Positions 15,900 through 28,010 of a stretch of DNA of 64,000 nucleotides are shown one piece after another. The stretch lies in contig CAJJAP010000004.1 in NCBI GenBank assembly GCA_905182185.1, forward strand, positions 5,773 to 69,772, given 5' to 3'. A program made the translations under genes and the position numbers. The stretch comes from an uncultured Candidatus Poseidoniales archaeon (GTDB taxonomy: Archaea > Thermoplasmatota > Poseidoniia > Poseidoniales > Poseidoniaceae). Each line of letters begins with the position of its first letter. Within the stretch, counting starts at the first letter, position 1. The notes below the pieces were generated by a model that was not told the DNA's origin, did no database searches, and worked only from the letters and a program-made list of their open reading frames with translations.

Positions 15900-16811
15900 T
15901 CAACTACCAATTCCAGATAGCAATGTTACGACTCTAATCGAATCGTGTAAGTCATCACTCACTCTTGCTCCGAGAATTACTTGGGCATCAACATCCAGCG
16001 CAGCAGTAAACATGCTCGCAACTGTTTCGACTTGACCAATGGTCATCCCTTGACCACCCTCGATTTGAATTAAACAACCCTTAGCACCACTGACATCTAA
16101 TTCTGCCAAAGGTGCCATCATCGCCGATTTCAAAATCTCTTCCGGTTCATCTGCCCTTCCTACACCGACTAGCATAGTGGCTCCACCTTCGGCATCAACA
16201 ATTGCCCTTAGATCCATTAAATCCAAATTGATTAAGCCCATTCTTAGTAGAGTCCTGACTAAACCATCTACTAAATCTTCAATCCATTCAGCACCCATCT
16301 GCCATGCTGTACCCTTTTCTCTCGCTTGTCTTGCAAGTCTTTCAAGTGACAATTGTACTGTAATATGTGCATTGCTTTGTAAACGTTCAAGTCCTTCAGC
16401 AGCGATTTTCGCTCGTGTCTCTTGTATTTCGAAAGGTAATGCTGCCACCGACAATACGACCGCCCCAGATTGCCGCGCTTGTCGGGCAAATTCATGAGCT
16501 GCTCCCGTACCAGAGCCGCCGCCCAATCCGACTAGCAAAACAACCAATTCAACATCCTCTAAGATCGTTCTAGCAAGAGGTGCGAGCCCCCTCATTCGTT
16601 GTTCTGCCAAAGGAGGTAAAGCAGCACAACCGACTGAATCTAATGTATGTCCTAAGCGCAATACATGGGCCGAGTCACAACCTGTTAAACTAGAATCATC
16701 AGCATCAATAAGAACTAAGTCAGCGCCTCTTCCACACTTTTCATAAGCTCTTTTTGCCCAAGCACAACCTAAACCACCAACACCGGCAATTAGGATTTGT
16801 GAGGCTTCCAT
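15900..16811 (-). CDS. Divergent FtsZ/tubulin-family GTPase
   Basis: IAGVGGLG, IDAD, LGGGSGTG, LPF, GLINLDLMDL, C-terminal VILGA..IRVVTLLSGI. Confidence 0.85.
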   Translation of the reverse strand: MEASQILIAGVGGLGCAWAKRAYEKCGRGADLVLIDADDSSLTGCDSAHVLRLGHTLDSVGCAALPPLAEQRMRGLAPLARTILEDVELVVLLVGLGGGSGTGAAHEFARQARQSGAVVLSVAALPFEIQETRAKIAAEGLERLQSNAHITVQLSLERLARQAREKGTAWQMGAEWIEDLVDGLVRTLLRMGLINLDLMDLRAIVDAEGGATMLVGVGRADEPEEILKSAMMAPLAELDVSGAKGCLIQIEGGQGMTIGQVETVASMFTAALDVDAQVILGARVSDDLHDSIRVVTLLSGIGS

Positions 16812-16868
16812 CGACCTAATGGTGGCGATGAACCTCAATGAACTTTGGCTGTAGATATTTTCTTAATC

Positions 16869-17168
16869 CTACTCAACATAACGAAGATAACGCCTTCTTG
16901 CATCTCTCGCCCATGCGTTATCTGGCTCTAGTTCTAAAACCAAATCATAATACTTTATTGCATTCTCAAATTCGGAGAGGTGACGTCCATACAGATGGCC
17001 GAGATTGGATAGGACTGGGATGCAGCCTTCTTCCCCCTCTAACATCTTGAGCAGTAATTCTTCCGCAGCGCCAAGATGATTTTTCACCATCAACTCTTCT
17101 GCTTTATCGAGTTGTTCCAATTGTTCAGAGCTCAAATCGTAAGTATTTTCGAAGGTATGGCTTGACAT
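16869..17168 (-). CDS. Small TPR-repeat protein
   Basis: VLSNLGHLY..AIKYYDLVLELEPDNAWA matches the TPR consensus. Confidence 0.75.
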   Translation of the reverse strand: MSSHTFENTYDLSSEQLEQLDKAEELMVKNHLGAAEELLLKMLEGEEGCIPVLSNLGHLYGRHLSEFENAIKYYDLVLELEPDNAWARDARRRYLRYVE

Positions 17169-17401: not shown

Positions 17402-18217
17402 ATGCGAGTTGGTTCTTTTTCTACGAGAATTACCCTTCTTTTGGGGCTGGTAGGGCTATTGCTACTTCCGAGCCTTGCAACATCATATCACACCGGCATT
17501 GGAGGAGAACAATCCAATGCTGGAGAGACTATTGATGATGTGGCAAAGCAAGGCTGCTTATGCCATAATGGCGCAGCTGATAATTCGATTCAGGTAATTC
17601 TTGACAAAGTCCCATATGCTTGGAATGCTGGCGACACATATGAATTCAACTTGCAACTAATCGGCGGACCTGCTGGCGGAATTTATACCGCTGGATTTTC
17701 AATGCGCACTAGTGCAGGCGAACTATCCGGCACAGACCTACAAAACTGGGAAGAAGACGTGACAACACTCACTCATACCGACGCATCTGCAAGCAAAGAT
17801 GACCGTTCGTGGCTTTTGACATGGACCGCTCCTGCTGCGGGAGAAGGTAGCGTTAATTTCTGGATTACTGGGAATTCGGTTTCAGGCGAGGGACTCCCTG
17901 GTGAAGATGACAAGTGGAATCAATTATTATTCGCCCTTCAGGAAGGAGATGCAGATAGTATCGCCCTTGGAACAAGAACTTTGTTTGCTGGTGATGGAAA
18001 TGTTAGCCCTCCTGCACCCTCTTCACATGGAGTCGATCTACACAGCATGGGAGCCCCGCTAAGAGCGCACTGGCTCGGATTACTCGGATTTGGCGCTGTA
18101 ATCATTGTAATAATATTCTCAGGCCTAATGCTAAGATATGGATTCTCCACCTCCTACAAGGGACGTAGCAATGCTCTACGTCTCCGCTACAAATTGATGC
18201 AGAGAGGTGACCAGTGA
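17402..18217 (+). CDS. Membrane-anchored Reeler/choice-of-anchor-V-like protein with CxCH motif
   Basis: Signal peptide, GCLCH, beta-sandwich-type motifs (WTAPAAGEGSVNFWITGNSV), C-terminal TM; first gene of the respiratory operon. Confidence 0.6.
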   Translation: MRVGSFSTRITLLLGLVGLLLLPSLATSYHTGIGGEQSNAGETIDDVAKQGCLCHNGAADNSIQVILDKVPYAWNAGDTYEFNLQLIGGPAGGIYTAGFSMRTSAGELSGTDLQNWEEDVTTLTHTDASASKDDRSWLLTWTAPAAGEGSVNFWITGNSVSGEGLPGEDDKWNQLLFALQEGDADSIALGTRTLFAGDGNVSPPAPSSHGVDLHSMGAPLRAHWLGLLGFGAVIIVIIFSGLMLRYGFSTSYKGRSNALRLRYKLMQRGDQ

Positions 18218-18660
18218 TGGATGATACAATCACGACCCTGTTGCGAGGTGTTGCAAAAGGAAACATCAGTATCGCTGATGCGAGAACTGCTTTGGAAAGT
18301 GCTTCACTGACTGAAGAACAGATGCAGAAAGCAATCGACCATGGAGTATTCAATCCTGCCGAACTGGGATCCATCGTCAGTGCAACCCTAGCCCCTTCAG
18401 GCGCATCACATCTGGCAATGTTCTTCTTCGTCTGGGGATTATTTTGGAGTTGCTACTGGTCTTTTTCATTAATCTATGGACTACTACATGGTTGGGACCA
18501 ACAACAATTATCATTCCATTTAGCCATGACATTAACGACCATAATAATGATGGGAATAATCTACCTAAAATATATCCTACCTGACACTATTATCGTCAAA
18601 TATGCTATGAATAAGTTCGTAACTGAGCATAAAAAGGACTGGAAGGAGTACAACTGGTGA
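18217..18660 (+). CDS. Hypothetical 2-TM protein in the Rieske/cytochrome b operon
   Basis: 148-aa ORF abutting both neighbours; two hydrophobic helices. Confidence 0.65.
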   Translation: MDDTITTLLRGVAKGNISIADARTALESASLTEEQMQKAIDHGVFNPAELGSIVSATLAPSGASHLAMFFFVWGLFWSCYWSFSLIYGLLHGWDQQQLSFHLAMTLTTIIMMGIIYLKYILPDTIIVKYAMNKFVTEHKKDWKEYNW

Positions 18661-18665
18661 TTATT

Positions 18666-19514
18666 ATGGCTCGCGAATACGAACTCAAACCGGCACCAAG
18701 TGGTGAACAATCTTCTACAAAAACAGCAGGAGATTCATTAATCAATAGACGCCAATTCCTTAGTTATGGATTCAATACTGCCACAGGCGTACTAGCGGCT
18801 TCACTGGGAGTTCTTGGTTTCGCATCCCTATTGCTGCCACCTGGCGGTAGCACCGGTGGCGACCTTGCTGCAAAATACTGGGCTAAGGGTCGTGAAGATG
18901 AGGCATGGTATGGAGCAATGCATGAACAAGTAATGAAGAAATCTGATTTCGTTGCTGAGGCAGCAAAGAGCTCCACCGGAACATCAGGAGCGGCTGGTGT
19001 TTGGAACGGAGTTCCAATAGTAGTAACATATGTAAACCATTCAAAGAATGCTGGAACCCCTTTATCAAATGGTAAAGCACGATTCCAATTCATGGAAGGA
19101 TATGATGGAACTGGAAAATATGTTGGCCATTTTGATGACTTGGCTGATGCAGACCCAAGACTATCACCCTCTGAGAATTTAGTAATGATTTTTGCAAGGT
19201 GTACACATTTGTGCTGCATCCCAGGTTGGCAATTAGTTTCTAACTCTTATACTGAAGATACATGGACTCCAGGCGGAGGTGATGATGGTGGAACAAAATT
19301 ATTCTGTATTTGCCACTCCTCACGTTTCGACCCTACTGCTTTAGAGATGAACACTAATACAAATCGTTCTAATGGTGCTAAATTCAAGTACGCTGGCATT
19401 CGCAGAGCCGGCGGCCCTGCGCCAGTAGGATTACCAATAATCCCGATTGCCATGAATGGCGATATTATTGAAGGATTACCAGATTATGTGGATTGGTACA
19501 CATTTTGCGACTGA
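18666..19514 (+). CDS. Rieske [2Fe-2S] subunit of a cytochrome bc/b6f-type complex
   Basis: Tat-like RRQFL plus TM; boxes CTHLCC and CICHSSRF; GGPAPVGLP; GGTGA RBS. Confidence 0.92.
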   Translation: MAREYELKPAPSGEQSSTKTAGDSLINRRQFLSYGFNTATGVLAASLGVLGFASLLLPPGGSTGGDLAAKYWAKGREDEAWYGAMHEQVMKKSDFVAEAAKSSTGTSGAAGVWNGVPIVVTYVNHSKNAGTPLSNGKARFQFMEGYDGTGKYVGHFDDLADADPRLSPSENLVMIFARCTHLCCIPGWQLVSNSYTEDTWTPGGGDDGGTKLFCICHSSRFDPTALEMNTNTNRSNGAKFKYAGIRRAGGPAPVGLPIIPIAMNGDIIEGLPDYVDWYTFCD

Positions 19515-19525
19515 GGTGAAATGAA

Positions 19526-20392
19526 ATGACAACAATGTTTTGGATTCTTTGGTTCTTCATCGTGTTCGTAGTGGTTCTTGTAGCATTCACCCTACGCAAG
19601 GAATCAGAAGAGATGCCTCGTAGAGACATTCTTCGTGCTGTTGAGTCAACAGGAAAAATGGGTGTGGCAGAGCGATCTTTTCTCTGGGTATTCTCTTGGC
19701 TGGATACTAGATTTAGATTACAAGACTATTGGAATATGTCGAAAGGTGCCTACTATAACATGCACAGGCAAATGCCGCTAAGTCACGCAGAAAAGTACAA
19801 ATTGAGAATCATTTGGTACTGGTACCCACTATACTGCCTCGGTGGAATCTCATTCCTATCATTCATTATCTTGGTAATTACCGGAACTGTTCTTGGAATT
19901 TATTACGTACCTGGAGGAGAAGGTGACCCTGCTCCCGCATATGCAAGTATGCAATATATCATGACCGAATTGCCATTTGGATATATCCTTCGTGCGGTTC
20001 ACCATTGGACTACTCACTTTATGGTAGCAAGTGTATTCTTACATATGTGCAGAGTTTACTTTACTGGAGCATACAGAAACCCTCGTGAATTAAACTGGCT
20101 TATTGGAGTCGCACTGATGTTCCTAACCATCTTCTTTGGCTACTCTGGATATTTACTACCTTGGGATTCCTTGGCATATGGTGCTGCTGTTATCGGAATT
20201 AACATGGCCAATTCATCACCGTTGATAGGAAAGATTGCTTCAACTGCCCTATTCGGTGGTACATCGCTAACTCCTCGAACCGTTACAAGAATGTACTTTA
20301 TTCACGTATTTATTCTCCCTGTGATTGTGACATTGTTGATCATCATTCACTTGTTTATTGTCTGGGTGCAGGGCATTGCGGAGCCACATTGA
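19526..20392 (+). CDS. petB: Cytochrome b6-type (split) cytochrome b
   Basis: YCLGG, RAVHHW..FLHMCRVY, RELNWLIG, GYLLPWD, RMYFIHVFILP..IIHL; ends after helix D. Confidence 0.95.
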   Translation: MTTMFWILWFFIVFVVVLVAFTLRKESEEMPRRDILRAVESTGKMGVAERSFLWVFSWLDTRFRLQDYWNMSKGAYYNMHRQMPLSHAEKYKLRIIWYWYPLYCLGGISFLSFIILVITGTVLGIYYVPGGEGDPAPAYASMQYIMTELPFGYILRAVHHWTTHFMVASVFLHMCRVYFTGAYRNPRELNWLIGVALMFLTIFFGYSGYLLPWDSLAYGAAVIGINMANSSPLIGKIASTALFGGTSLTPRTVTRMYFIHVFILPVIVTLLIIIHLFIVWVQGIAEPH

Positions 20393-20411
20393 TATTTTGG
20401 AGGATTAAATT

Positions 20412-23225
20412 ATGGGATTAGTAGAAAATCTTGGAAGAGTTGCTTCCTCCTACATGGATGAGAAGGAAAACTTGCAGAGCGTTGAAGGAAAGAGAGAACG
20501 TACACGAATGGGACATGCTTTTTGGCCACATGAAGTCCTCCGTGACGTACTTATCTTTTCGTTTATGGGTGCAGTATTGTTATTCTATTCTTGGCTTATA
20601 CCACCACCATTACACAGTGCTGCCGACCCATATGCTCAAGCAGGATTCGTTTTCCCTGATTGGTATGTATTATTTTCATATGGATACCTTCGTTGGGGAG
20701 AGTATCTACCGCAATTCTCCGTACCTACCGGATTCCTAGGAGATATATTTGGTCAACCTTCGTTCCCTTGGAACGCTGCATGGTGGGGAGCTGCTCTTAC
20801 TGGAATTCCAGTAGGAATACTACTACTTCCACCATTGATTGGAGGTCGTGAAAAGAGACCTGTAGAAGACCCTTGGTTTGCAAGTGCAGGCGTAGTATAT
20901 CTTGCACACGTATGGTTTATCTCTGTCTTTTCGATTAATATCTTCTTGAAACTATATGGCAATAATAGATCTGATTATTGTAAATTGGATTCTCATGGAG
21001 ACCTGTTATGTGGTGCAAGAGACCCCTGGGTTGCGGATTTGTTCAATGCCATTCCGTGGATATTGACTGGTATTTTAATATGGATTATTATTTATTTCGT
21101 GGCTAGAACAATGATGGTAAAGGCTTGGGGTGCTGGCTTCACTCCAGCACATGGCAAGAGAATTCTTGTTGGAGCATTGATGGTTTCAACTGCAATATCA
21201 GTTTCTACTTGGGATGTTTATGATGATGGTTTCTGGGATGCAAAGGGATTGCTCACCATTTCCGATTATGAGGAACTTGAAGCGATGAGGTCACAACCAG
21301 TTGATGTTCATGTTCATGATACCAATGAATTTACTGACGCACAAGGTTGGTCTACTACAGAGATAGTACCAACCACTGCTTGGCTTGATTGGAACTTATA
21401 CCAACCCGCTAGATATATTATTACTGATTTTGGCGATGCCAATGGACATCAAGATGCTGCTAATGAAATAAATGCTGCAGCGGTCACAGATTCATTCTCT
21501 GGAGAGGCTGAATGGATTGCAATAGGCTCATTTACAGTTACTGAAGATTCAACCTACTTCCCTTATGGGCATCACAAGTCTGTAGAAACAATTACCACTG
21601 ATATGAAGTGCGAGTATAGATCTAGTGAAAGAAAGATCGGTGAATTATCTACTGCCGATATGTTGACTTCAACTTTCATGGTTACCGACTCATCTGGAAA
21701 GACAGTTTCATCATTCACTGGATGTGATGGAGCAACTGTTGAACTCAAGGTTGGAACCTATGACTACCAAATGACTGTCCAAGCAACTGGTTTACTTGCT
21801 CAAAACTCCTCAATTATGACTGAAGCTTCTATGGAGATCGCTTCATTCCAACCACTATTGGTTTGGGACGAGGATGCTCACTCAAGTCTTGCTGGTACGA
21901 GTGTCAATCTTTCAAGTTCCGAGGATATGGCTCTTGGAGATGGAAAATTCGCACCTATTGAGAATCCATCGTATCATAGAAATCCTAAATCCTTAGATGC
22001 AAAACTTACCTATGCTATGTTTATTCCATGTCTAACATTCGGCGCCCTTGTATTCGTATTACTAAGATACATGGCTCGTGGATATGAGTTCGAGATGAAC
22101 AAGTGCTACGGCTGTGACCTTTGTGATGATGCTTGTCCTGTCCGCCTATTCACTGGTGGAGACAAATTAAACATCATTTACAATTCTTGGAATAACGAAG
22201 ATGATGGTGTCCCGATGTATTCATGTTTGACATGTTCTGCTTGTACTAACGCCTGTCCGCAACTTGTCGATTACGACTCTTATGTAGATATTAGGCGTGG
22301 ACTAATTGTTGGTGCATCTCAAGCAGAGATACCTCACACTGTCCTTCAAGCAGTTCTTGCTGCTGAGGCAGAGGAAGAAGCCGATGCAGACTTCATCACA
22401 ACCGAAGATTATCCAATTAATTCCAAGGTGGGATACTATCCTGGATGTGTCGACTATCTTGACCAAGAGATGGTATTTTCACATGTCAATGATGGTGAGA
22501 TGAACTTAGGAGCCTCAACAACCGCTGCTTTCACTTTGTTTGAAGAGATGGGCAACGAAGTTTCATATCTTGGAAGAGACTTCCTAAAGTGCTGTGGCCA
22601 CGATCAAAAGTGGCAAGGTCTTGATGAAGTGTTTGAAAAACTAAAGGCATACAATCAACGTAAGATTGAGGAATCTGGAATAGATACCCTCGTATCTTCT
22701 TGTGCTGAATGTTTCAGAACATTTGCTCGGGATTATGAGCTAGAAGGTATCAAGGTAATGCACACAACTGAATATCTAACCGAGCAAGGATTTGATATGA
22801 ACTTGAGTACTGAAGAGACCACTGTGACATATCATGACCCATGTAGACTAGGACGTCAAATGGGAGTCTATGATGAACCACGTGATTTGATTACAGCCGT
22901 TGAGGGTGTTAATTTGGTTGAGATGGAACATAGTGGAGAGGATGCAATGTGTTGTGGTGTTTCGAGCATGATGTCATGTAACGAAGATGCTCGTTCACTT
23001 CGTGTATCTCGTATGGAAGAAATCCGTGCTACTGGAGCAGATACGATGCTCACATCGTGTCCTAAATGTGTTGCTCACTTTGAGTGTTTGAAGTTTGAAG
23101 GTGATGAACAGTATGCAGATATTGAAATCCTTGATGTTGTTACATTCTTGGCACGACAAGTTGATGCAAAGAAATCTGAACTAGTTGCTGCAAATACTGA
23201 TGCACAAGACCAAATCAAAGCTTGA
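20412..23225 (+). CDS. Cytochrome b subunit IV (PetD-like) fused to an extracellular domain and an HdrD/GlpC-like 2x[4Fe-4S] + 2xCCG oxidoreductase
   Basis: FWPHEVLRD, AADP, FPDWY; then CYGCDLCDDACP and CLTCSACTNACP; YYPGC, CCG, SCAEC, YHDPCRLGR, CCG, SCPKC. Confidence 0.9.
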   Translation: MGLVENLGRVASSYMDEKENLQSVEGKRERTRMGHAFWPHEVLRDVLIFSFMGAVLLFYSWLIPPPLHSAADPYAQAGFVFPDWYVLFSYGYLRWGEYLPQFSVPTGFLGDIFGQPSFPWNAAWWGAALTGIPVGILLLPPLIGGREKRPVEDPWFASAGVVYLAHVWFISVFSINIFLKLYGNNRSDYCKLDSHGDLLCGARDPWVADLFNAIPWILTGILIWIIIYFVARTMMVKAWGAGFTPAHGKRILVGALMVSTAISVSTWDVYDDGFWDAKGLLTISDYEELEAMRSQPVDVHVHDTNEFTDAQGWSTTEIVPTTAWLDWNLYQPARYIITDFGDANGHQDAANEINAAAVTDSFSGEAEWIAIGSFTVTEDSTYFPYGHHKSVETITTDMKCEYRSSERKIGELSTADMLTSTFMVTDSSGKTVSSFTGCDGATVELKVGTYDYQMTVQATGLLAQNSSIMTEASMEIASFQPLLVWDEDAHSSLAGTSVNLSSSEDMALGDGKFAPIENPSYHRNPKSLDAKLTYAMFIPCLTFGALVFVLLRYMARGYEFEMNKCYGCDLCDDACPVRLFTGGDKLNIIYNSWNNEDDGVPMYSCLTCSACTNACPQLVDYDSYVDIRRGLIVGASQAEIPHTVLQAVLAAEAEEEADADFITTEDYPINSKVGYYPGCVDYLDQEMVFSHVNDGEMNLGASTTAAFTLFEEMGNEVSYLGRDFLKCCGHDQKWQGLDEVFEKLKAYNQRKIEESGIDTLVSSCAECFRTFARDYELEGIKVMHTTEYLTEQGFDMNLSTEETTVTYHDPCRLGRQMGVYDEPRDLITAVEGVNLVEMEHSGEDAMCCGVSSMMSCNEDARSLRVSRMEEIRATGADTMLTSCPKCVAHFECLKFEGDEQYADIEILDVVTFLARQVDAKKSELVAANTDAQDQIKA

Positions 23226-23269
23226 GTATTTTGTCGTTCAATATTTCTAAGCACCCCTAGTGCTAAGAA

Positions 23270-23965
23270 GTGTTGTCACTAGCGCCATTCATGAACAGAC
23301 CTGCTTTGTATGTACTTACAATCGGCATCGGTTTGTACATCAGTGCTACTGGCCTGAATGGAATCATTCCGGACCATTGGGCTGAATGGCCAGTCAATAT
23401 TTGGTGCTGGTCTGTATTTGCATATATATTCTATAAGACCACTCGAAAGGAGCGTATTGAGATGCTGACTGTGTTGGCATTTGCCACCCCAATGGAACTA
23501 TTTTTTAGTGAAGTTTGGCTAATCTATGAATACCAACGAGGACTAATGCCCCTATTCGTTCCAGTGGGTCATTATTTCTTATTTGACCTGGGCAGGATTA
23601 TCGCCAATAAGATGAGAGAGAACCTCGCCATAATTTGCTTGACCCCATTTATTCCACTTGTCGCTTATGGCGTTTATAGCGGTGGCGATACGTCTGCGTT
23701 ATTCCTCCTGATACTGGTACTCGCATTCACAAAATGGGGACCTCAACCTCGATTATATGTTGCAATGGCTTGGGCGGCCTTAGCTATGGAATTATGGGGC
23801 ACACACTTGACCAATTGGACATGGGCTAACGAAGTCCCATGGACGGGACTAACCGCTTGGAATCCACCGCTATTGGTTGGTGCATTCTATTGTGTTGGAG
23901 ATTTATTGGTCAACCTTAGTGTTGCCAAGTTTGAAAGAGAAGTGACGGCTGAGGTGGTAGTATGA
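23270..23965 (+). CDS. Hypothetical multi-pass membrane protein
   Basis: 231-aa ORF with about 7 hydrophobic segments; overlaps the ferredoxin start (ATGA). Confidence 0.7.
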   Translation: MLSLAPFMNRPALYVLTIGIGLYISATGLNGIIPDHWAEWPVNIWCWSVFAYIFYKTTRKERIEMLTVLAFATPMELFFSEVWLIYEYQRGLMPLFVPVGHYFLFDLGRIIANKMRENLAIICLTPFIPLVAYGVYSGGDTSALFLLILVLAFTKWGPQPRLYVAMAWAALAMELWGTHLTNWTWANEVPWTGLTAWNPPLLVGAFYCVGDLLVNLSVAKFEREVTAEVVV

Positions 23966-24294
23966 CCACCAGTGACGAGTTGGCGACGAGACGAGCGGCT
24001 GAGGCTCTGGCCATCCGTACATCTCTAAATCGTCAGCGCGGAGTGCAGCGCGCTAATACAAAGGGTGGTGAAGGAACTGTTGCCTATGTTACTGCAGAGA
24101 AATGTATTGGCTGCGATCAATGTACAATCGTCTGTGATGATAATGCAATTGACATATACAAAGTAGAGATGGCCAGTCAATTCATCAAAGTGGAAAGTAA
24201 TCGCAAGGCCAAGATTATTCGCGATGCTTGTACTGGCTGTAGATTGTGCGTACTCGCTTGTCCTACAGACGCTATAACAATGATTGATTTGTGA
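23962..24294 (+). CDS. 2x[4Fe-4S] dicluster ferredoxin with N-terminal extension
   Basis: CIGCDQCTIVC and CTGCRLCVLACP. Confidence 0.9.
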   Translation: MTTSDELATRRAAEALAIRTSLNRQRGVQRANTKGGEGTVAYVTAEKCIGCDQCTIVCDDNAIDIYKVEMASQFIKVESNRKAKIIRDACTGCRLCVLACPTDAITMIDL

Positions 24295-24303
24295 GGAATT
24301 ACC

Positions 24304-24606
24304 ATGACAAAAGATGATGATGAAGAAGTTCAAAGATTCGGAGGAGAATTCGGACCTTACCGCAAGGAAGGGACTTCAGGAGTAAGCCTCGGAACATTCA
24401 AAACATTGGTCTGGACTTCCAATATAGGTGGACTTTTACTATGTGCATTATCCCTTGAAATGCTATTTGTTCGTAAAATGTTTGGCTGGGGATTATTGGC
24501 CCTAATGGCTGCAGTTGCCATCGCTTTATTCCCCTCAAATTATGAAATCGTTGGAATGGGTGATGAATCTATCACCTCCACCGATGATCAAAACACACAG
24601 GATTGA
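24304..24606 (+). CDS. Small 2-TM hypothetical protein
   Basis: GAGGA RBS; two hydrophobic helices; last gene of the operon. Confidence 0.65.
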   Translation: MTKDDDEEVQRFGGEFGPYRKEGTSGVSLGTFKTLVWTSNIGGLLLCALSLEMLFVRKMFGWGLLALMAAVAIALFPSNYEIVGMGDESITSTDDQNTQD

Positions 24607-24736: not shown

Positions 24737-25966
24737 TCAAACAGATGATTCATTAGCATACTTTATTGCTTCAGCACCCATTGCCAACATCGACAATTCT
24801 GCTACTAAAGCATGCCATCCCTTTGCATGCTCTCCATAGAGATGACCCACTTCAGATGAATCAAAGAATTCTGCACTAGGCGAGTTCAAATTATCCATAT
24901 CACCCTTCTTAGCATTTATTCTATAGAACCAGGATGCGGCTTCACCATCGACCAAATAAACAACAGGTTCAACTGGTGCTCCACCTTCTTCTGTTAGAAG
25001 AGTTGGAACTCCTTCTTGAATTAAGAAATTTTCAACATCTGCACCGCCTTTGGAATACATTAGTTTCTTCATTTTTCTATTGGACAGTTCAAGTAACTGC
25101 TCTCCCCGCTTGACCGCCATAATACCGAGTCCATATGTTCCTCTATCATTTTTTACAAAAACAACAGGCTCTCTTTCGATTCCAAGGGATTCATATTTTT
25201 CTTTAATCTGTTTAATAAATTCGTCTACTTCTGCCGCTAATTCAATCCTGCAATTCTCTTTTTCAAGACATTTATTCTTTGAAACAAACCAATTCGCCAT
25301 CAAATGCCAACTATCAATTTCTAACAATTGTGCCATCTCATCAACATATTGCTGCAAACAAGCATAATGTTCTGATTTCCTACGGCGATGCCATCCCATA
25401 CTCGGAGGCGGGCTCACATTATTGGCAGACAATCCAGGCACTATCCCTTCAGTAAGATCATTATTTAGCAATATCAAGCAAGGTCTTTCCCCTTCTACGA
25501 ATAACTCTTCCTTCCCATTTTCAAGTTTTAATTCAACTGTTGACAATTGCAACGGACCTGAAATCCCTGCCAAAGAACCATGAGCAGATAATTCAGGTGA
25601 ACCAACTGTACATCTGAAACCGGAAAGGTGTATTAAACGTTGAATAGTCGCTACATTCTCGACATATCCTGCATTCCGAGTATGTGATTCAGGGTACAGA
25701 TGAACCCATTCACATTTGGTTTTAAGTCTTAAAATATGATTTTTAAGAAGATTTGCAAGATGTGGTTCATCCTCCTTTGAAACATTGTTGAATCCGGCTG
25801 GAAAGTGATTGGCATCAACAACTGCGACCTTCCATCCAGCATCCCTCACATCAACACTACCATAGATTGGAATTGGCACTTCACTGCGCTTCTTTGCCAT
25901 CCATGCTGTGATCTGTTCTCTCTTAGATTCAAGTATTTGTGAGTATTCATGCACGTAATTCATCAT
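24737..25966 (-). CDS. gshA: Glutamate--cysteine ligase (GshA, PF08886-type ATP-grasp family)
   Basis: PIYGSVDVRDAGWKVAVVDANHFPAGFNN, ILLNNDL, VKNDRGTYGLGIM, IQEGVPT. Confidence 0.85.
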   Translation of the reverse strand: MMNYVHEYSQILESKREQITAWMAKKRSEVPIPIYGSVDVRDAGWKVAVVDANHFPAGFNNVSKEDEPHLANLLKNHILRLKTKCEWVHLYPESHTRNAGYVENVATIQRLIHLSGFRCTVGSPELSAHGSLAGISGPLQLSTVELKLENGKEELFVEGERPCLILLNNDLTEGIVPGLSANNVSPPPSMGWHRRRKSEHYACLQQYVDEMAQLLEIDSWHLMANWFVSKNKCLEKENCRIELAAEVDEFIKQIKEKYESLGIEREPVVFVKNDRGTYGLGIMAVKRGEQLLELSNRKMKKLMYSKGGADVENFLIQEGVPTLLTEEGGAPVEPVVYLVDGEAASWFYRINAKKGDMDNLNSPSAEFFDSSEVGHLYGEHAKGWHALVAELSMLAMGAEAIKYANESSV

Positions 25967-27744
25967 ATCACCTCATCCAGTAAATCAATTGCTGTTCCCG
26001 AACGCTTACTTCTACCACCATCAACAATATGCATTGCTTCAAACAATCCCAAACCTATCGCCAAATCAGGTTGATCTTTGAAAGCACCACTAATAAGTGG
26101 GTACTTACTCATTATTTGCTGCGCTCTTCCATCTAATTGTTGTAGCATATTGTGCAACAACTTAGGAGATGTTGCTGTACCGGCTGGTAATTTTGGTCTA
26201 CGTACAATTTCTGCTGGTAATTTAGTCAAATCAGCAGCACGGCGCAAGGCTATTTTCTCTTCAAATGAAGGTGGAAGGCGCCACTTCATCGGTAACTTAT
26301 GTGATGCTTGGCGGTGCGACTTGCCGAGGAATGGAACTCTAACTTCAAGAGAATGCGCCATAGAATGTCTATCGACTAAGCGTAATTGGAAATTACTCAA
26401 CTGCCCACTATCCAATTCAAATTGTAAGAAGTCATCTAATGAAGAGGTATGGGCAGTAGCTGAATGGTCATTTGAATAATAATAATCTCCAATAGGTAAT
26501 TGACCATTTTCAATGATTGATTTCGATGGGTGGTCCATCATATCAAAGCGAGATTGAATCACACTAGAATGATGCTCTAGATCTCTATAACGTGGATACC
26601 CTGCATGAAGTTCATCCGCTCCTTGACCGCATAATCCAACTGTTACCGATTCTGACATTTTCTCAAACAGTGGCTGGAAGAATAGAACAGTTACATCCAA
26701 ATCTTCACCATGCCAAGCCAAATCAGGTAACATTTTATCAAACGAATCCTCTTGTAAAATATGTTGATGATGTTCTAACTCAAGGCTTGATGCTACTAAC
26801 TCAGCAGCCTGCCAGTCAGGGTTTTCTTCACTCTCTGCAACCGTCCAACATGCAGGAACGGGATTACCACTTCTTTGGGCTGCTTCGTGAGCAACTGCGG
26901 CAACTAAACTAGAATCCAGTCCCCCGGAAAGTACTATGCCAACCGGCACATCTGACATCAACCTCTCTTCAACACTAACAACGAAAGATTCCAGTAACTT
27001 ACTAGCCTCTAAATCTGGATTCCATGTATCTGCAGGTTCTACCTTCTGCCTTTCCACGGTTGCTTTACCAGTTAATACTGCGCAACCATTGTTGTCAAGA
27101 CTCCATGTCTCAACTGTTCCTGGCTTTATTTGTGCAACATCCTTCAGCAGTGTTGTTCCATCTAAAGGGTACTCCCAAGCCAACCTTGCCACCAATGCAA
27201 GTTCATCGATTTGGGGTATATGTCCTTCATGGGCCCTAAGGGCTTTGGCTTCACTTGCAAATAGTAGACTACCATCAACCTCGGTCCTCATCAATGGCTT
27301 AATCCCCATAGGGTCTCTAGCCAATAGCAATTGCTTATCTTTTGGATTCCATATCGCTATCGCATACATTCCATTGAGTTGAGAGAGCCATTGCGCATGT
27401 TGTTTAGCGGAAAGTTTACCGTTATTTGTCGCTAATGCATTCTCATGTAGAGCCAGTATGGTCTCACTATCACCATTTGTAGTCCATGGATAGTGAGCCT
27501 GATTTTTGCGGAGATTTAGATGATTGTAAATCTCTCCATTGGCGATCAAAATATTTCCACTCTGCGCAGATATCGGTTGGTCACTTCCACTGATATCAAC
27601 AATCGCCAATCGAGTGTGTCCGAGTGCTATGCTTTCATCACTCCAAATGTCATTGCCATCTGGGCCTCGATGACGCATCAACAGATTCATTCGTTCTATT
27701 ACGGCGGAATCGGGGTTTCCAAACATACCACCAATACCGCACAC
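25963..27744 (-). CDS. asnB: Asparagine synthase B-family glutamine amidotransferase
   Basis: GTG start at 27744 exposes the Ntn Cys (CGIGG); HRGPD, GHTRLAIVD, NGEIYN, RDPMGIKPL, LSGGLDSS, GQGADEL. Confidence 0.9.
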   Translation of the reverse strand: MCGIGGMFGNPDSAVIERMNLLMRHRGPDGNDIWSDESIALGHTRLAIVDISGSDQPISAQSGNILIANGEIYNHLNLRKNQAHYPWTTNGDSETILALHENALATNNGKLSAKQHAQWLSQLNGMYAIAIWNPKDKQLLLARDPMGIKPLMRTEVDGSLLFASEAKALRAHEGHIPQIDELALVARLAWEYPLDGTTLLKDVAQIKPGTVETWSLDNNGCAVLTGKATVERQKVEPADTWNPDLEASKLLESFVVSVEERLMSDVPVGIVLSGGLDSSLVAAVAHEAAQRSGNPVPACWTVAESEENPDWQAAELVASSLELEHHQHILQEDSFDKMLPDLAWHGEDLDVTVLFFQPLFEKMSESVTVGLCGQGADELHAGYPRYRDLEHHSSVIQSRFDMMDHPSKSIIENGQLPIGDYYYSNDHSATAHTSSLDDFLQFELDSGQLSNFQLRLVDRHSMAHSLEVRVPFLGKSHRQASHKLPMKWRLPPSFEEKIALRRAADLTKLPAEIVRRPKLPAGTATSPKLLHNMLQQLDGRAQQIMSKYPLISGAFKDQPDLAIGLGLFEAMHIVDGGRSKRSGTAIDLLDEVI

Positions 27745-28010
27745 AGTAAAAGGTGTAAACCACCTCCTTTTCAATGGTTGTAAATAACCATGAATCAATT
27801 CACAGTAATACACTTAGACTGGCATCACCAAAGAGGCCATCTAAACATAGTAAATACAAGAGCTAAGACCGAAATACCAAAAAAGATGTAATATGATGTT
27901 TGAGGTGGGTCATTGGATTCGTTTTCCTCAGACATGGTAGTTCACTATTCCAAAGGGGAGAGCAACCACCATTTCAACATATTGAGGAATATGAATGGCT
28001 TTTTGCTAAA

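What the first reader, a model, noticed from the sequence alone, without database searches (positions are those of the whole stretch)
17402..24606. Eight-gene respiratory operon with a ferredoxin and three unknown membrane proteins
Seen: eight co-oriented genes with gaps of 45 nt or less and several overlaps: CxCH protein, 2-TM, Rieske, cyt b, subunit IV-Fe-S fusion, multi-TM, 2x[4Fe-4S] ferredoxin, 2-TM. The Rieske has CTHLCC (extra Cys) and CICHSSRF, keeping the Ser but replacing the potential-raising Tyr with Phe. Inference: the small membrane proteins may be extra subunits or assembly factors, the ferredoxin a mobile partner of the CCG module, and the Rieske of intermediate potential.
Basis: partly seen in the sequence, partly recalled or inferred. 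Interest (0 to 1): 0.65.

Follow-up and report, generated by a model that had tools for sequence, protein, structure and literature searches.

The report
Archaeal complex III with ferredoxin cassette
In this Marine Group II archaeon the eight genes are a conserved five-gene Rieske/cytochrome b complex, whose subunit IV is fused to a heterodisulfide-reductase-like iron-sulfur module, followed by a movable three-gene ferredoxin cassette that in most relatives is transcribed from the opposite strand.

Summary
The eight co-oriented, tightly packed genes are real. They are two units, not one fixed operon.

- **Core, genes 1-5.** It encodes a reeler-like GCxCH ectoprotein, a DUF7318 membrane protein, a Tat-type Rieske protein, a b6-type cytochrome b, and subunit IV fused to an HdrD/EtfD-like 2x[4Fe-4S]+2xCCG module. 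These five genes are contiguous in every Poseidoniales locus examined.
- **Cassette, genes 6-8.** It is co-oriented only in the window's own clade (6 genomes). In 61 other MGIIa loci it lies inverted, behind the convergent asnB-gshA pair. In one sublineage it sits 10-13 kb away.
- **Ferredoxin and 2-TM protein.** They directly follow gene 5 on the same strand in 10 of 10 MGIIb loci. A ferredoxin also follows the HdrD-like gene in MGIII and in another Thermoplasmatota family. They are therefore ancient partners of the complex.
- **Gene 6.** It is an MGIIa-only orphan, absent or unlinked in MGIIb.

Most likely mechanism (inferred): menaquinol is oxidised at a PDWY Qo site. A cytoplasmic Fe-S wire couples ferredoxin to the heme bH/ci-Qi side.

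The Rieske motifs are confirmed.

The parts
17402..18217 (+). g1: membrane-anchored ectoprotein with a reeler-like beta-sandwich (choice-of-anchor V domain) and an invariant G-C-x-C-H. Candidate electron acceptor on the outer side.
   Evidence: - NCBIfam NF041895 matches at 5e-23.
- It has a signal peptide and a C-terminal TM helix.
- The AF2 model has pLDDT 77.8. Its best Foldseek match in the PDB is the F-spondin reeler domain, 2zou_B, at 2.6e-5.
- GCxCH is 100% conserved across 84 full-length family members, and H125 is 91% conserved.
- It is the first gene of the operon in MGIIa, MGIIb and MGIII.
18214..18660 (+). g2: small 2-TM protein of Pfam family DUF7318. Candidate extra subunit or assembly factor of the core complex.
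   Evidence: - All 9 orthologues scanned match PF24002, best 2.7e-14.
- It overlaps g1 and g3 by 4 nt each.
- It lies between g1 and the Rieske gene in MGIIa, MGIIb and MGIII. A g2-like gene also lies in the f24 locus.
18657..19514 (+). g3: Rieske [2Fe-2S] protein with a Tat signal (RRQFL), box I CTHLCC and box II CICHSSRF.
   Evidence: - The sequence is.
- TIGR01416 gives a partial match at 3.8e-9.
- CTHLCC is present in 70 of 71 MGIIa copies and CICHSSRF in 71 of 71. MGIIb has 5 copies with F and 5 with Y at the last position.
19526..20392 (+). g4: b6-type cytochrome b (helices A-D plus one extra N-terminal TM helix), with the YCLGG cysteine at the heme ci position.
   Evidence: - PF00033 matches at 3.5e-41.
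- The best solved matches are cytochromes b6 (1vf5_A, 6.5e-44). YCLGG aligns with FYCLGG of b6.
- His spacing is 13 residues in helix B and 14 in helix D.
- CLGG is conserved in 93 copies from relatives.
20412..21218 (+). g5 residues 1-269: subunit IV / cytochrome b C-terminal part (helices E-H plus a fifth TM helix), with the Qo motif PDWY.
   Evidence: - Profile A4 hits cytochrome b C-terminal halves (9fks_a, 5.3e-8) and b6f subunit IV (2e74_B, 4.2e-4). PDWY aligns with PEWY.
- Pfam Cytochrom_B_C matches 3 of 6 family members, best 4.2e-9.
- The TM helices were mapped.
21219..22004 (+). g5 residues 270-531: variable outer-side insert found only in Poseidoniales, partly a beta-sandwich. A sixth TM helix follows at residues 532-550.
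   Evidence: - It is poorly conserved in alignment A1.
- It is absent from the 4-TM relatives in MGIII, f22 and f30.
- Only residues ~345-480 are confidently folded, as beta strands, in the AF2 model.
22077..23225 (+). g5 residues 556-937: cytoplasmic HdrD/EtfD-like module with two CxxCxxCxxxCP motifs and two complete CCG motifs.
   Evidence: - PF02754 matches at 7e-24 in 2 stretches, and Fer4_8 at 2.2e-7.
- NCBIfam matches TfrB at 4.8e-32 and LdhH at 6.9e-25, both below cut-off.
- The only solved relative found by sequence is M. smegmatis EtfD, 9ojn_A, at 4e-24.
- All ten CCG cysteines are invariant.
- Six TM helices place this module on the N-terminal, cytoplasmic side.
23270..23965 (+). g6: orphan multi-TM protein. 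The start is probably the ATG at 23291. It is the first gene of the separable cassette and occurs at this locus only in MGIIa.
   Evidence: - No Pfam or NCBIfam match.
- The 120 homologues listed (of 1183 hits) carry only names such as 'hypothetical protein', and are mostly 224-226 aa long.
- It is absent from 6 of 8 MGIIb genomes and unlinked in the other 2.
- A conserved leader, CACCCCTAGTGCTAAGAA (23252-23269), travels with it in both orientations.
23962..24294 (+). g7: 110-aa 2x[4Fe-4S] ferredoxin with a basic N-terminal extension. Probable redox partner or subunit of the HdrD-like module.
   Evidence: - Fer4_21 matches at 2.8e-14. RnfB TIGR01944 matches at 2.9e-12, below cut-off.
- It is single-copy in the genome.
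- It directly follows g5 on the same strand in 10 of 10 MGIIb loci. A g7-like domain follows the HdrD-like gene in MGIII and f30.
24304..24606 (+). g8: 100-aa 2-TM protein, always paired with g7. Candidate membrane anchor for the ferredoxin.
   Evidence: - TM helices were mapped.
- It lies next to g7 in every MGIIa locus that holds both genes and in all 10 MGIIb loci. Two MGIIb loci have a ~1.3 kb insert between the two genes.
- The conserved N-terminal motif RFG(A/G)EFGP is seen.
24737..27813 (-). Context: the convergent asnB-like amidotransferase (25963-27813) and gshA (24737-25966) pair. The cassette is attached to this pair in most MGIIa genomes.
   Evidence: - GshA PF08886 matches at 1.4e-100. 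Asn_synthase matches at 4.5e-47, with GATase domains.
- In inverted loci g6 starts within about 24-96 nt of gshA in 45 of the 55 loci where this gap could be measured.
- In G037 the genes asnB-gshA-g6-g7-g8 are contiguous.

Best explanation
**What it is.** The stretch is a composite of two units.

1. A conserved five-gene operon encodes the only Rieske/cytochrome b complex of Poseidoniales. Its parts are:
   - a reeler-like GCxCH ectoprotein;
   - a DUF7318 membrane protein;
   - a Tat-exported Rieske protein;
   - a b6-type cytochrome b with the heme-ci cysteine;
   - a subunit IV whose C-terminus, after an even number of TM helices, carries a cytoplasmic HdrD/EtfD-like chain of two cubane [4Fe-4S] sites and two CCG-type cluster sites.
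2. A separable three-gene cassette follows (orphan membrane protein g6, di-cluster ferredoxin g7, 2-TM protein g8). In this lineage it reads on from gene 5. In most MGIIa relatives it is flipped onto the convergent asnB-gshA operon.

The ferredoxin and its 2-TM partner are ancestral companions of the complex. g6 is a late, lineage-specific addition.

**How it probably works (inferred).** Menaquinol is oxidised at the PDWY Qo site. One electron goes to the Rieske cluster and on to an outer-side acceptor, probably the GCxCH ectoprotein. The other crosses hemes bL and bH. On the cytoplasmic side, the fused Fe-S wire connects the g7 ferredoxin with the heme bH/ci-Qi region. g7 may be anchored by g8. 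Reduced ferredoxin from 2-oxoacid:ferredoxin oxidoreductases could then reduce quinone there. This would be a hard-wired version of the ferredoxin-to-heme-ci route proposed for cyclic flow in b6f.

**Shown:** gene content, domain identities, conservation and gene order.

**Inferred:** cofactor occupancy, the partners, and the direction of electron flow.
For: **Gene order**
- g1-g5 are contiguous and co-oriented in all 80 MGIIa loci where they are present, and in 10 of 10 MGIIb loci.
- The full-length fusion occurs in every sampled f1 and f2 genome.
- The cassette is co-oriented in 5 of 66 informative MGIIa loci and inverted in 61.
- The co-oriented clade is one of five deep MGIIa lineages.
- In MGIIb the order is g5-g7-g8 on one strand, without g6.
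- A ferredoxin follows the HdrD-like gene in MGIII and f30. An HdrA/MvhD-like flavoprotein takes that place in f22 and f24.

**Domains**
- Supported.

**Topology**
- g5 has six TM helices. The distant relatives appear to have four and lack the middle insert (read from the sequences). Both counts place the Fe-S module in the cytoplasm.

**Cluster sites**
- The HdrD-like part keeps all ten CCG cysteines.

**Physiological context**
- 2-oxoacid:ferredoxin oxidoreductase is present in 19 of 21 relatives.
- Futalosine-pathway MqnA/D genes are present in 17 of 21. This fits a menaquinone pool and a PDWY-type Qo motif.
- The same GCxCH domain is fused to oxidase subunit I across the order. This supports an outer-side redox role for g1.
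- Tully 2019 (PMC6336850) noted an 'MGII specific complex III' and an orphan RnfB.
Against: - Co-transcription of g5 and g6 in this genome is therefore unproven. A conserved g6 leader suggests the cassette may have its own promoter.
- In most MGIIa genomes the ferredoxin is tightly packed behind gshA, not the complex.
- The direction of electron flow cannot be read from sequence.
- Both CCG motifs are intact, as in catalytic Hdr. The CTG and His variants of the pure electron wire EtfD are not present (PMC13083937). This leans towards thiol/disulfide chemistry.
- The AF2 model of g5 was too poor to place the Fe-S chain relative to the membrane part (pLDDT 47).
- No cofactor has been observed.
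Confidence: 0.55

Rival explanations
1. There is one obligate eight-gene operon encoding an eight-subunit complex. g2, g6 and g8 are extra subunits or assembly factors, and g7 is a freely diffusing partner.
For: - In the window and its 5 closest relatives, all eight genes are co-oriented with gaps of 65 nt or less.
- g2 is universal with the complex.
Against: - 61 of 66 informative MGIIa loci have g6-g8 on the other strand.
- One sublineage has them 10-13 kb away.
- g6 is missing from 6 of 8 MGIIb genomes and unlinked in the other 2.
Confidence: 0.1
2. The fused module is an electron exit: a membrane-bound thiol/disulfide reductase like HdrDE or DsrMK. Electrons from quinol pass through the b hemes to the CCG clusters. 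There they reduce the disulfide of a low-molecular-weight thiol made by the neighbouring asnB-gshA pair, or a protein disulfide.
For: - Both CCG motifs are complete, as in catalytic HdrB/HdrD. EtfD, a pure wire, has C-T-G and a His ligand instead (PMC13083937).
- The best NCBIfam match is the thiol-dependent TfrB at 4.8e-32.
- gshA and asnB lie convergent next to the operon in both MGIIa and MGIIb.
Against: - Moving electrons from heme bH to a thiol couple near -240 mV is uphill and runs against the membrane potential (established bioenergetics).
- gshA is not near the complex in MGIII or the other families.
- The partner conserved beyond the order is a ferredoxin or an HdrA-like flavoprotein, not a thiol enzyme.
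- CCG proteins such as GlpC, LdhH and SdhE also act as plain quinone-linked wires.
Confidence: 0.2
3. The g6-g7-g8 cassette belongs functionally to the asnB-gshA thiol pathway, for example redox support or export. It sits beside the respiratory operon only by conserved neighbourhood.
For: - In most MGIIa genomes the cassette follows gshA at short distance on the same strand (about 24-96 nt in 45 of the 55 inverted loci where the gap could be measured). It stays with gshA when the block moves 10-13 kb away.
- Earlier scan notes describe asnB-gshA-membrane protein-ferredoxin-small protein strings in several genomes.
Against: - In 10 of 10 MGIIb loci, g7 and g8 are on the strand of g5 and convergent to gshA.
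- In MGIII and f30 the ferredoxin follows the HdrD-like gene with no gshA nearby.
Confidence: 0.12
4. The fused module is the ETF acceptor, an EtfD analogue. It would feed beta-oxidation electrons into the quinone pool through the complex.
For: - EtfD is the only solved relative found by sequence (4e-24 and 2.4e-27).
- EtfAB is present in 21 of 21 relatives. The ETF-QO signature domain is present in only 2 of 21.
Against: - The genome has a separate true EtfD orthologue at G000 C8:5925-8030. It matches 9ojn_A at 2.8e-99 and has the EtfD-type C-S-G and C-P-H-C motifs.
- etfBA is not linked to the operon.
Confidence: 0.05

Closest known systems
Cytochrome b6f and the b6-type Rieske/cytochrome b complexes of Firmicutes and Heliobacteria
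   Same: - Cytochrome b is split into a b6-like protein and a subunit IV-like protein.
- A cysteine sits at the heme ci position, aligned with b6.
- Helix D has 14-residue His spacing.
- There is a PDWY/PEWY Qo motif and a Tat-type Rieske protein.
- The pool is probably menaquinone, as in the Firmicute enzymes.
   Different: - There is no c-type cytochrome; none of the eight proteins has CxxCH. A reeler-like GCxCH ectoprotein heads the operon instead.
- Subunit IV has extra TM helices and a 380-residue cytoplasmic HdrD-like Fe-S module.
- Rieske box I reads CTHLCC.
HdrDE, DsrMK and mycobacterial EtfD (a membrane b-type cytochrome joined to an HdrD-like Fe-S/CCG module)
   Same: - A cytoplasmic 2x[4Fe-4S] + 2xCCG chain is attached to a heme-b membrane part that talks to the quinone or phenazine pool.
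- EtfD is the closest solved relative (4e-24).
- EtfD shows such a chain can wire a cytoplasmic donor to menaquinone through heme b (PMC13083937).
   Different: - The membrane partner here is a Rieske/cytochrome b (Q-cycle type) complex, not a NarI/HdrE-type cytochrome.
- Both CCG motifs are complete, whereas EtfD has C-T-G and a His ligand.
- A genuine EtfD orthologue exists elsewhere in the genome.
Sulfolobus SoxLN-CbsAB-OdsN complex (an archaeal Rieske/cytochrome b complex with a non-c-type ectoprotein). This comparison is recalled from the literature and was not tested here.
   Same: - An archaeal operon in which a membrane-anchored, non-c-type outer protein and a small hydrophobic protein precede the Rieske and cytochrome b genes.
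- There is no cytochrome c1.
   Different: - CbsA is a heme-b protein unrelated by sequence to the choice-of-anchor V domain, as far as tested (no family match).
- There is no HdrD-like fusion and no linked ferredoxin.
Rnf complex subunit RnfB
   Same: - g7 is a small poly-cluster ferredoxin whose best NCBIfam match is RnfB.
- Tully 2019 counted an orphan RnfB in MGII.
   Different: - The score is below the family cut-off (46.5 against 68.7 bits).
- All other Rnf subunits are reported absent from MGII (PMC6336850).
- g7 has no TM anchor of its own.

Membership tests
Rieske/cytochrome b complexes (bc1/b6f superfamily) | Rieske protein with CxH...CxxH cluster boxes and the disulfide cysteines | tested here: met
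   CTHLCC and CICHSSRF are present, with an RRQFL Tat motif. TIGR01416 gives a partial match at 3.8e-9.
Rieske/cytochrome b complexes (bc1/b6f superfamily) | Cytochrome b with four His ligands in helices B and D | tested here: met
   H159/H173 and H260/H275 align with the b6 ligands. PF00033 matches at 3.5e-41.
Rieske/cytochrome b complexes (bc1/b6f superfamily) | C-terminal cytochrome b part / subunit IV with a PEWY-type Qo motif | tested here: met
   Profile A4 hits cytochrome b C-terminal halves at 5.3e-8 and subunit IV at 4.2e-4. PDWY aligns with PEWY. PF00032 matches 3 of 6 relatives.
Rieske/cytochrome b complexes (bc1/b6f superfamily) | c-type cytochrome subunit (c1, f or di-heme c) | tested here: not met
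   None of the eight proteins has CxxCH. This feature is also missing in other archaeal members of the superfamily.
b6-type subgroup (b6f, Firmicutes) | Split cytochrome b, a Cys for covalent heme ci, and 14-residue His spacing in helix D | tested here: met
   The gene is split. YCLGG aligns with b6 FYCLGG. The spacing is 14. Whether heme ci is actually attached cannot be tested here.
HdrD/HdrB CCG-domain Fe-S proteins | Two CxxCxxCxxxCP motifs plus two CCG motifs (C...CC...CxxC) | tested here: met
   PF02754 matches at 7e-24 in 2 stretches. Cysteines 565-615 and 679/727/728/764/767 and 811/847/848/883/886 are invariant. The first C-to-CC spacing is 47 residues, longer than the usual 31-39.
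HdrD/HdrB CCG-domain Fe-S proteins | Heterodisulfide (thiol/disulfide) reductase activity | not testable with these tools
   All NCBIfam equivalog scores are far below cut-off: TfrB 111 against 385, DsrK 38 against 400, HdrB 19.6 against 345.
EtfD (Rv0338c-type ETF:menaquinone oxidoreductase) | NarI/HdrE-like five-TM heme-b domain, C-T/S-G at cluster D1, and a C-P-H-C histidine ligand | tested here: not met
   g5 has a subunit IV-type membrane part, CCG and C-A-E-C. The true orthologue is G000 C8:5925-8030, at 2.8e-99.
Rnf complex (RnfB) | Score over the family cut-off and presence of the other Rnf subunits | tested here: not met
   TIGR01944 scores 46.5 bits against a cut-off of 68.7. RnfACDEG are reported absent from MGII (PMC6336850). 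I did not re-test that absence.
Single eight-gene operon conserved as a unit | The same order and strand of all eight genes in relatives | tested here: not met
   Only 5 of 66 informative MGIIa loci share the arrangement. MGIIb lacks g6 at the locus.

The most novel reading that the evidence does not exclude
Marine Group II archaea may run a respiratory chain without cytochrome c. One reeler-like GCxCH ectodomain family would act as the electron relay. One copy heads the complex III operon (g1). Another is fused to subunit I of the terminal heme-copper oxidase in nearly all Poseidoniales.

The same complex III would also carry a hard-wired cytoplasmic Fe-S entry. This entry would let ferredoxin reduce quinone at the heme ci/Qi site. 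One enzyme would then be both a ferredoxin:quinone reductase and a quinol oxidase.
Probability: 0.3. Interest if true: 0.85.

Novelty: new variant of a known kind. Interest (0 to 1): 0.62.

Why it matters
Poseidoniales are among the most abundant archaea in the surface ocean, and they remain uncultured. Their energy metabolism is read only from genomes.

The literature found here mentions the enzyme only briefly. Tully 2019 describes a cytochrome b plus Rieske pair 'lacking the canonical bc1', that is, an 'MGII specific complex III', together with an unexplained orphan RnfB. Sources label gene 5 'heterodisulfide reductase subunit D', 'heterodisulfide reductase-related' or just 'Fe-S oxidoreductase'.

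Recognising three points gives a concrete, testable model of how these organisms re-oxidise ferredoxin and pass electrons to oxygen:
- subunit IV of their only complex III carries an HdrD/EtfD-like Fe-S wire;
- the 'RnfB' is its old gene neighbour;
- the outer-side partner family is also fused to the terminal oxidase.

The work also bears on a long-standing question about b6f: whether heme ci is an entry point for ferredoxin electrons. This complex is a natural case where a cytoplasmic Fe-S chain is covalently tethered to that side.

For annotation, the work shows that the apparent eight-gene operon is lineage-specific and that g6 should not be counted as a subunit.

Tried and rejected
- **Transcript evidence.** Co-transcription is untested.
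- **Promoter and terminator scans.** The sigma-70 and intrinsic-terminator scan was uninformative for an archaeon. Promoter-like counts were at the shuffle level (21 against 20.4) and terminator-like counts were modestly above it (10 against 5.7, sd 2.5).
- **Inversion mechanism.** No inverted repeats flank the cassette.
- **Polarity of the inversion.** The tree leaves the five deep MGIIa lineages as a polytomy. It is unresolved whether the window's arrangement is ancestral or a re-inversion.
- **Identity of g6.** There is no Pfam or NCBIfam match even at E = 10 across 15 family members. All listed homologues are 'hypothetical'. A resemblance of its ME...W/Y-x-W/Y motifs to carotenoid-type membrane enzymes is only a recollection and was not testable.
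- **g6 as a heme-ci maturation factor.** Rejected, because MGIIb keeps the YCLGG cysteine without g6.
- **ETF-acceptor role for g5.** Considered because EtfD is the closest solved relative and ETF-QO is missing. Rejected after a true EtfD orthologue was found elsewhere in the genome.
- **Structure of g5.** The AF2 model was too poor (pLDDT 47, pTM 0.32), so it was not fold-searched.
- **CxCH as a c-type heme site.** No evidence. The motif is a family-wide hallmark of choice-of-anchor V domains (126 of 149 representatives), but its cofactor is unknown.
- **Literature.** Searches for a prior description of the fusion found none.

Full report
**1. The observation**

Window 17402-24606 holds eight + strand ORFs.
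- Three junctions overlap by 4 nt: g1/g2, g2/g3 and g6/g7.
- The other gaps are 11, 19 and 9 nt.
- The g5-g6 gap is 44 nt with the GTG at 23270. It is 65 nt with the ATG at 23291, which public gene calls use.
- The window is contig C4:5773-69772 of a 1.55-Mb, 63%-complete genome. Record titles of near relatives name Candidatus Poseidoniaceae, that is Marine Group IIa.

**2. Identities of the core genes**

- **g1.** It has a signal peptide, a 200-residue ectodomain and a C-terminal TM helix.
  - It matches NCBIfam choice_anch_V at 5e-23.
  - An AF2 model (pLDDT 77.8) is closest to the F-spondin reeler domain (2zou_B, 2.6e-5).
  - A profile search finds 3539 representatives. G-C-x-C-H is invariant in 84 full-length members, and a second His is 91% conserved.
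- **g2.** It belongs to Pfam DUF7318 (9 of 9 orthologues, best 2.7e-14).
- **g3.** It is a Rieske protein with RRQFL, CTHLCC and CICHSSRF.
  - Both boxes are fixed in MGIIa (70 of 71 and 71 of 71 copies).
  - In MGIIb the last residue is F in 5 copies and Y in 5.
- **g4.** Its closest solved relatives are cytochromes b6 (6.5e-44).
  - YCLGG aligns with the heme-ci cysteine motif.
  - His spacing is 13 in helix B and 14 in helix D.
- **No c-type heme motif.** None of the eight proteins has CxxCH.

**3. The fusion protein g5**

- **N-terminal part.** A profile of the first 240 residues hits cytochrome b C-terminal halves (5.3e-8) and b6f subunit IV (4.2e-4). PDWY aligns with PEWY. Pfam Cytochrom_B_C matches three distant relatives.
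- **Topology.** Hydropathy gives six TM helices. A variable 260-residue outer insert lies between helices 5 and 6. Relatives in MGIII, f22 and f30 appear to have four helices and no insert. In both designs the C-terminal module is cytoplasmic.
- **Fe-S module.** It has two CxxCxxCxxxCP motifs and two complete CCG motifs. All are invariant in a 12-sequence alignment.
- **Closest solved relative.** By sequence the only one is M. smegmatis EtfD (9ojn_A; 4e-24, or 2.4e-27 with a profile).
  - The EtfD paper shows a wire from the CCG clusters through two cubane clusters and heme b to menaquinone.
  - It also shows that EtfD replaced one CCG cysteine (C-T-G) and added a His ligand, which makes its clusters non-catalytic (PMC13083937).
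  - g5 keeps CCG in both domains and has Glu at the His position.
- **Distribution.** The full-length fusion occurs in every sampled genome of families f1 and f2. Sources label it heterodisulfide-reductase-related or Fe-S oxidoreductase.

**4.

In 80 MGIIa loci, g1-g5 are always contiguous and co-oriented wherever they are present. The cassette g6-g7-g8 varies:

| Group | Arrangement of g6-g7-g8 |
|---|---|
| Window's clade, MGIIa (window plus 5 loci, ≥89% identity in g5) | co-oriented, directly after g5 |
| 61 other MGIIa loci | opposite strand, convergent with g5; g6 about 24-96 nt behind gshA in 45 of 55 measurable loci |
| One MGIIa sublineage | asnB-gshA-g6-g7-g8 as one contiguous block, 10-13 kb from g5 |
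| MGIIb, 10 of 10 loci | g5-g7-g8 on one strand, g6 absent from the locus; approximate g5-g7 gaps 10-656 nt |

- A g5 tree makes the co-oriented genomes a single clade. It is one of five deep MGIIa lineages in an unresolved polytomy.
- g6 is missing from six of eight MGIIb genomes tested. It sits on other contigs in the other two.
- Outside the order, MGIII loci keep g1, g2, Rieske, cytochrome b, subunit IV with the Fe-S part, and a CCG part. A two-domain ferredoxin follows, whose C-terminal half resembles g7.
- An f30 genome has cytochrome b, the fusion without the insert, and a g7-like polyferredoxin.
- f22 and f24 genomes have an HdrA/MvhD-like flavoprotein in that position.
- A short leader upstream of g6 (window 23252-23269) is shared between the window's clade and one of the inverted MGIIa lineages. 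The cassette therefore moves with its own 5' flank.
- No inverted repeats mark the cassette borders.

**5. Context in the genome**

- g2 to g8 are single-copy.
- g1 has four paralogues.
  - One is fused to the N-terminus of heme-copper oxidase subunit I at C5:90009-92267. The choice_anch_V part matches at 1.7e-22 and the CtaD part at 4.4e-188. COX2 and COX3 flank it.
  - The full-length fusion occurs in about 37 of 41 Poseidoniales genomes.
- A separate true EtfD orthologue lies at C8:5925-8030. It matches 9ojn_A at 2.8e-99 and has the C-S-G and C-P-H-C motifs.
- EtfAB occur in 21 of 21 relatives.
- 2-oxoacid:ferredoxin oxidoreductase occurs in 19 of 21.
- Futalosine MqnA/D genes occur in 17 of 21. 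No true MenA or MenB was found.

**6. Mechanism**

What is shown is the parts list and its conservation. The rest is inferred.
- The PDWY motif and the futalosine genes point to a menaquinol-oxidising Qo site.
- The Rieske cluster needs an outer acceptor. The operon-leading GCxCH ectoprotein is the best candidate, because its domain family is also fused to the terminal oxidase. Its cofactor is unknown.
- On the inner side, a covalently tethered chain of four cluster sites ends near the heme bH/ci side of cytochrome b.
- The deep gene-order partner of this chain is a di-cluster ferredoxin with a 2-TM companion.
- I therefore favour a ferredoxin-to-quinone entry at the Qi side. This flow is energetically downhill and supplies a route for re-oxidising ferredoxin.
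- The main rival is an Hdr- or DsrMK-like exit to a thiol/disulfide couple. The intact CCG motifs and the neighbouring gshA-asnB pair keep it alive. It is uphill from heme bH, and it has no gene-order support outside the order.
- The ETF-acceptor idea is unlikely, given the separate EtfD orthologue.

**7.

- 'Extra subunits or assembly factors' is reasonable for g2, possible for g8 as a ferredoxin anchor, and unlikely for g6.
- 'Ferredoxin partner of the CCG module' is supported by deep synteny, but 'mobile' is not shown.
- 'Intermediate potential' could not be tested.
  - The Ser is kept, and Phe replaces Tyr in all MGIIa copies.
  - MGIIb is split between F and Y.
  - The likely menaquinone pool would by itself suggest a lower potential.

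**8. Comparison with the literature**

- Tully 2019 (PMC6336850) noted a cytochrome b plus Rieske pair without a canonical bc1, an 'MGII specific complex III', and an orphan RnfB.
- Five text searches found no description of the fusion, of the cassette, or of the ectodomain link to the oxidase.
- Earlier notes of this scan on other genomes describe the same complex. They also describe asnB-gshA-membrane protein-ferredoxin strings as a separable module. My gene-order analysis agrees and joins the two pictures.

**9. Limits**

- There is no usable model of g5.
- tblastn-based gaps are approximate.
- Genome sampling was by one representative per species.

Noticed in passing
G000 contig C5:89005-93671 (outside the window): The terminal heme-copper oxidase subunit I is fused at its N-terminus to the same GCxCH choice-of-anchor V ectodomain as g1. 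The domain occupies residues 15-161, then a TM helix, then CoxI at 223-732. COX2 with a CuA motif and COX3 flank it. The full-length fusion is present in about 37 of 41 Poseidoniales genomes.
   Followed up: partly
G000 contig C8:5925-8030 (outside the window): A 701-aa true EtfD orthologue: a multi-TM heme-b part plus 2x[4Fe-4S] and CCG domains with the EtfD-type C-S-G and C-P-H-C motifs. It matches 9ojn_A at 2.8e-99. EtfBA lie at C4:180617-182297 with no fixCX next to them.
   Followed up: partly
window 23252-23269: A leader, CACCCCTAGTGCTAAGAA, lies upstream of g6. It is present in the window's co-oriented clade, and similar forms (ACCCGTTCTTGCTAAG...) occur in one of the inverted MGIIa lineages (e.g. 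L006, L025, L027). It is a possible cassette promoter or regulatory site.
   Followed up: no
L092:6134-7393 (-) and L093:9206-10996 (+): In two other Thermoplasmatota families, f22 and f24, the cytochrome b and subunit IV::HdrD genes are followed by an HdrA/MvhD-like flavo-Fe-S protein (FlpD, Fer4 and FAD-type matches) instead of a small ferredoxin. This hints at a flavin-based bifurcating partner in those lineages.
   Followed up: partly
L095:7411-9584 (MGIII): In MGIII the counterpart of g5 appears split. Subunit IV plus the 2x[4Fe-4S] part ends at a TGA, and the CCG part continues in another frame or ORF. The genome search flagged 1-2 in-frame TGA codons in several MGIII genomes. This could be a split gene, a frameshift or a recoding event.
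   Followed up: no
L101:6366-16761 and L102:489-10930: In one MGIIa sublineage a block of about 10-13 kb separates g5 from the asnB-gshA-g6-g7-g8 string. The block includes a 1362-aa secreted protein and carboxylase-like genes.
   Followed up: no
window 15900-17168 (- strand): A divergent FtsZ-like gene (Tubulin 8e-14, FtsZ_C 5e-18) and a 99-aa TPR protein lie upstream of g1. They keep this position in both MGIIa and MGIIb loci.
   Followed up: no
G000 C4:70631-72781, C10:99554-100198, C9:65491-66078: Three further GCxCH choice-of-anchor V paralogues. One is a 716-aa protein with long acidic Asp-rich repeats and a C-terminal TM helix. It begins about 860 nt past the end of the window.
   Followed up: no
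L021 (NZEQ01000055.1) and protein P0099: Contigs carrying this archaeal operon are filed under a Verrucomicrobiales MAG and a Flavobacteriales MAG. These are probably binning errors in public records.
   Followed up: no
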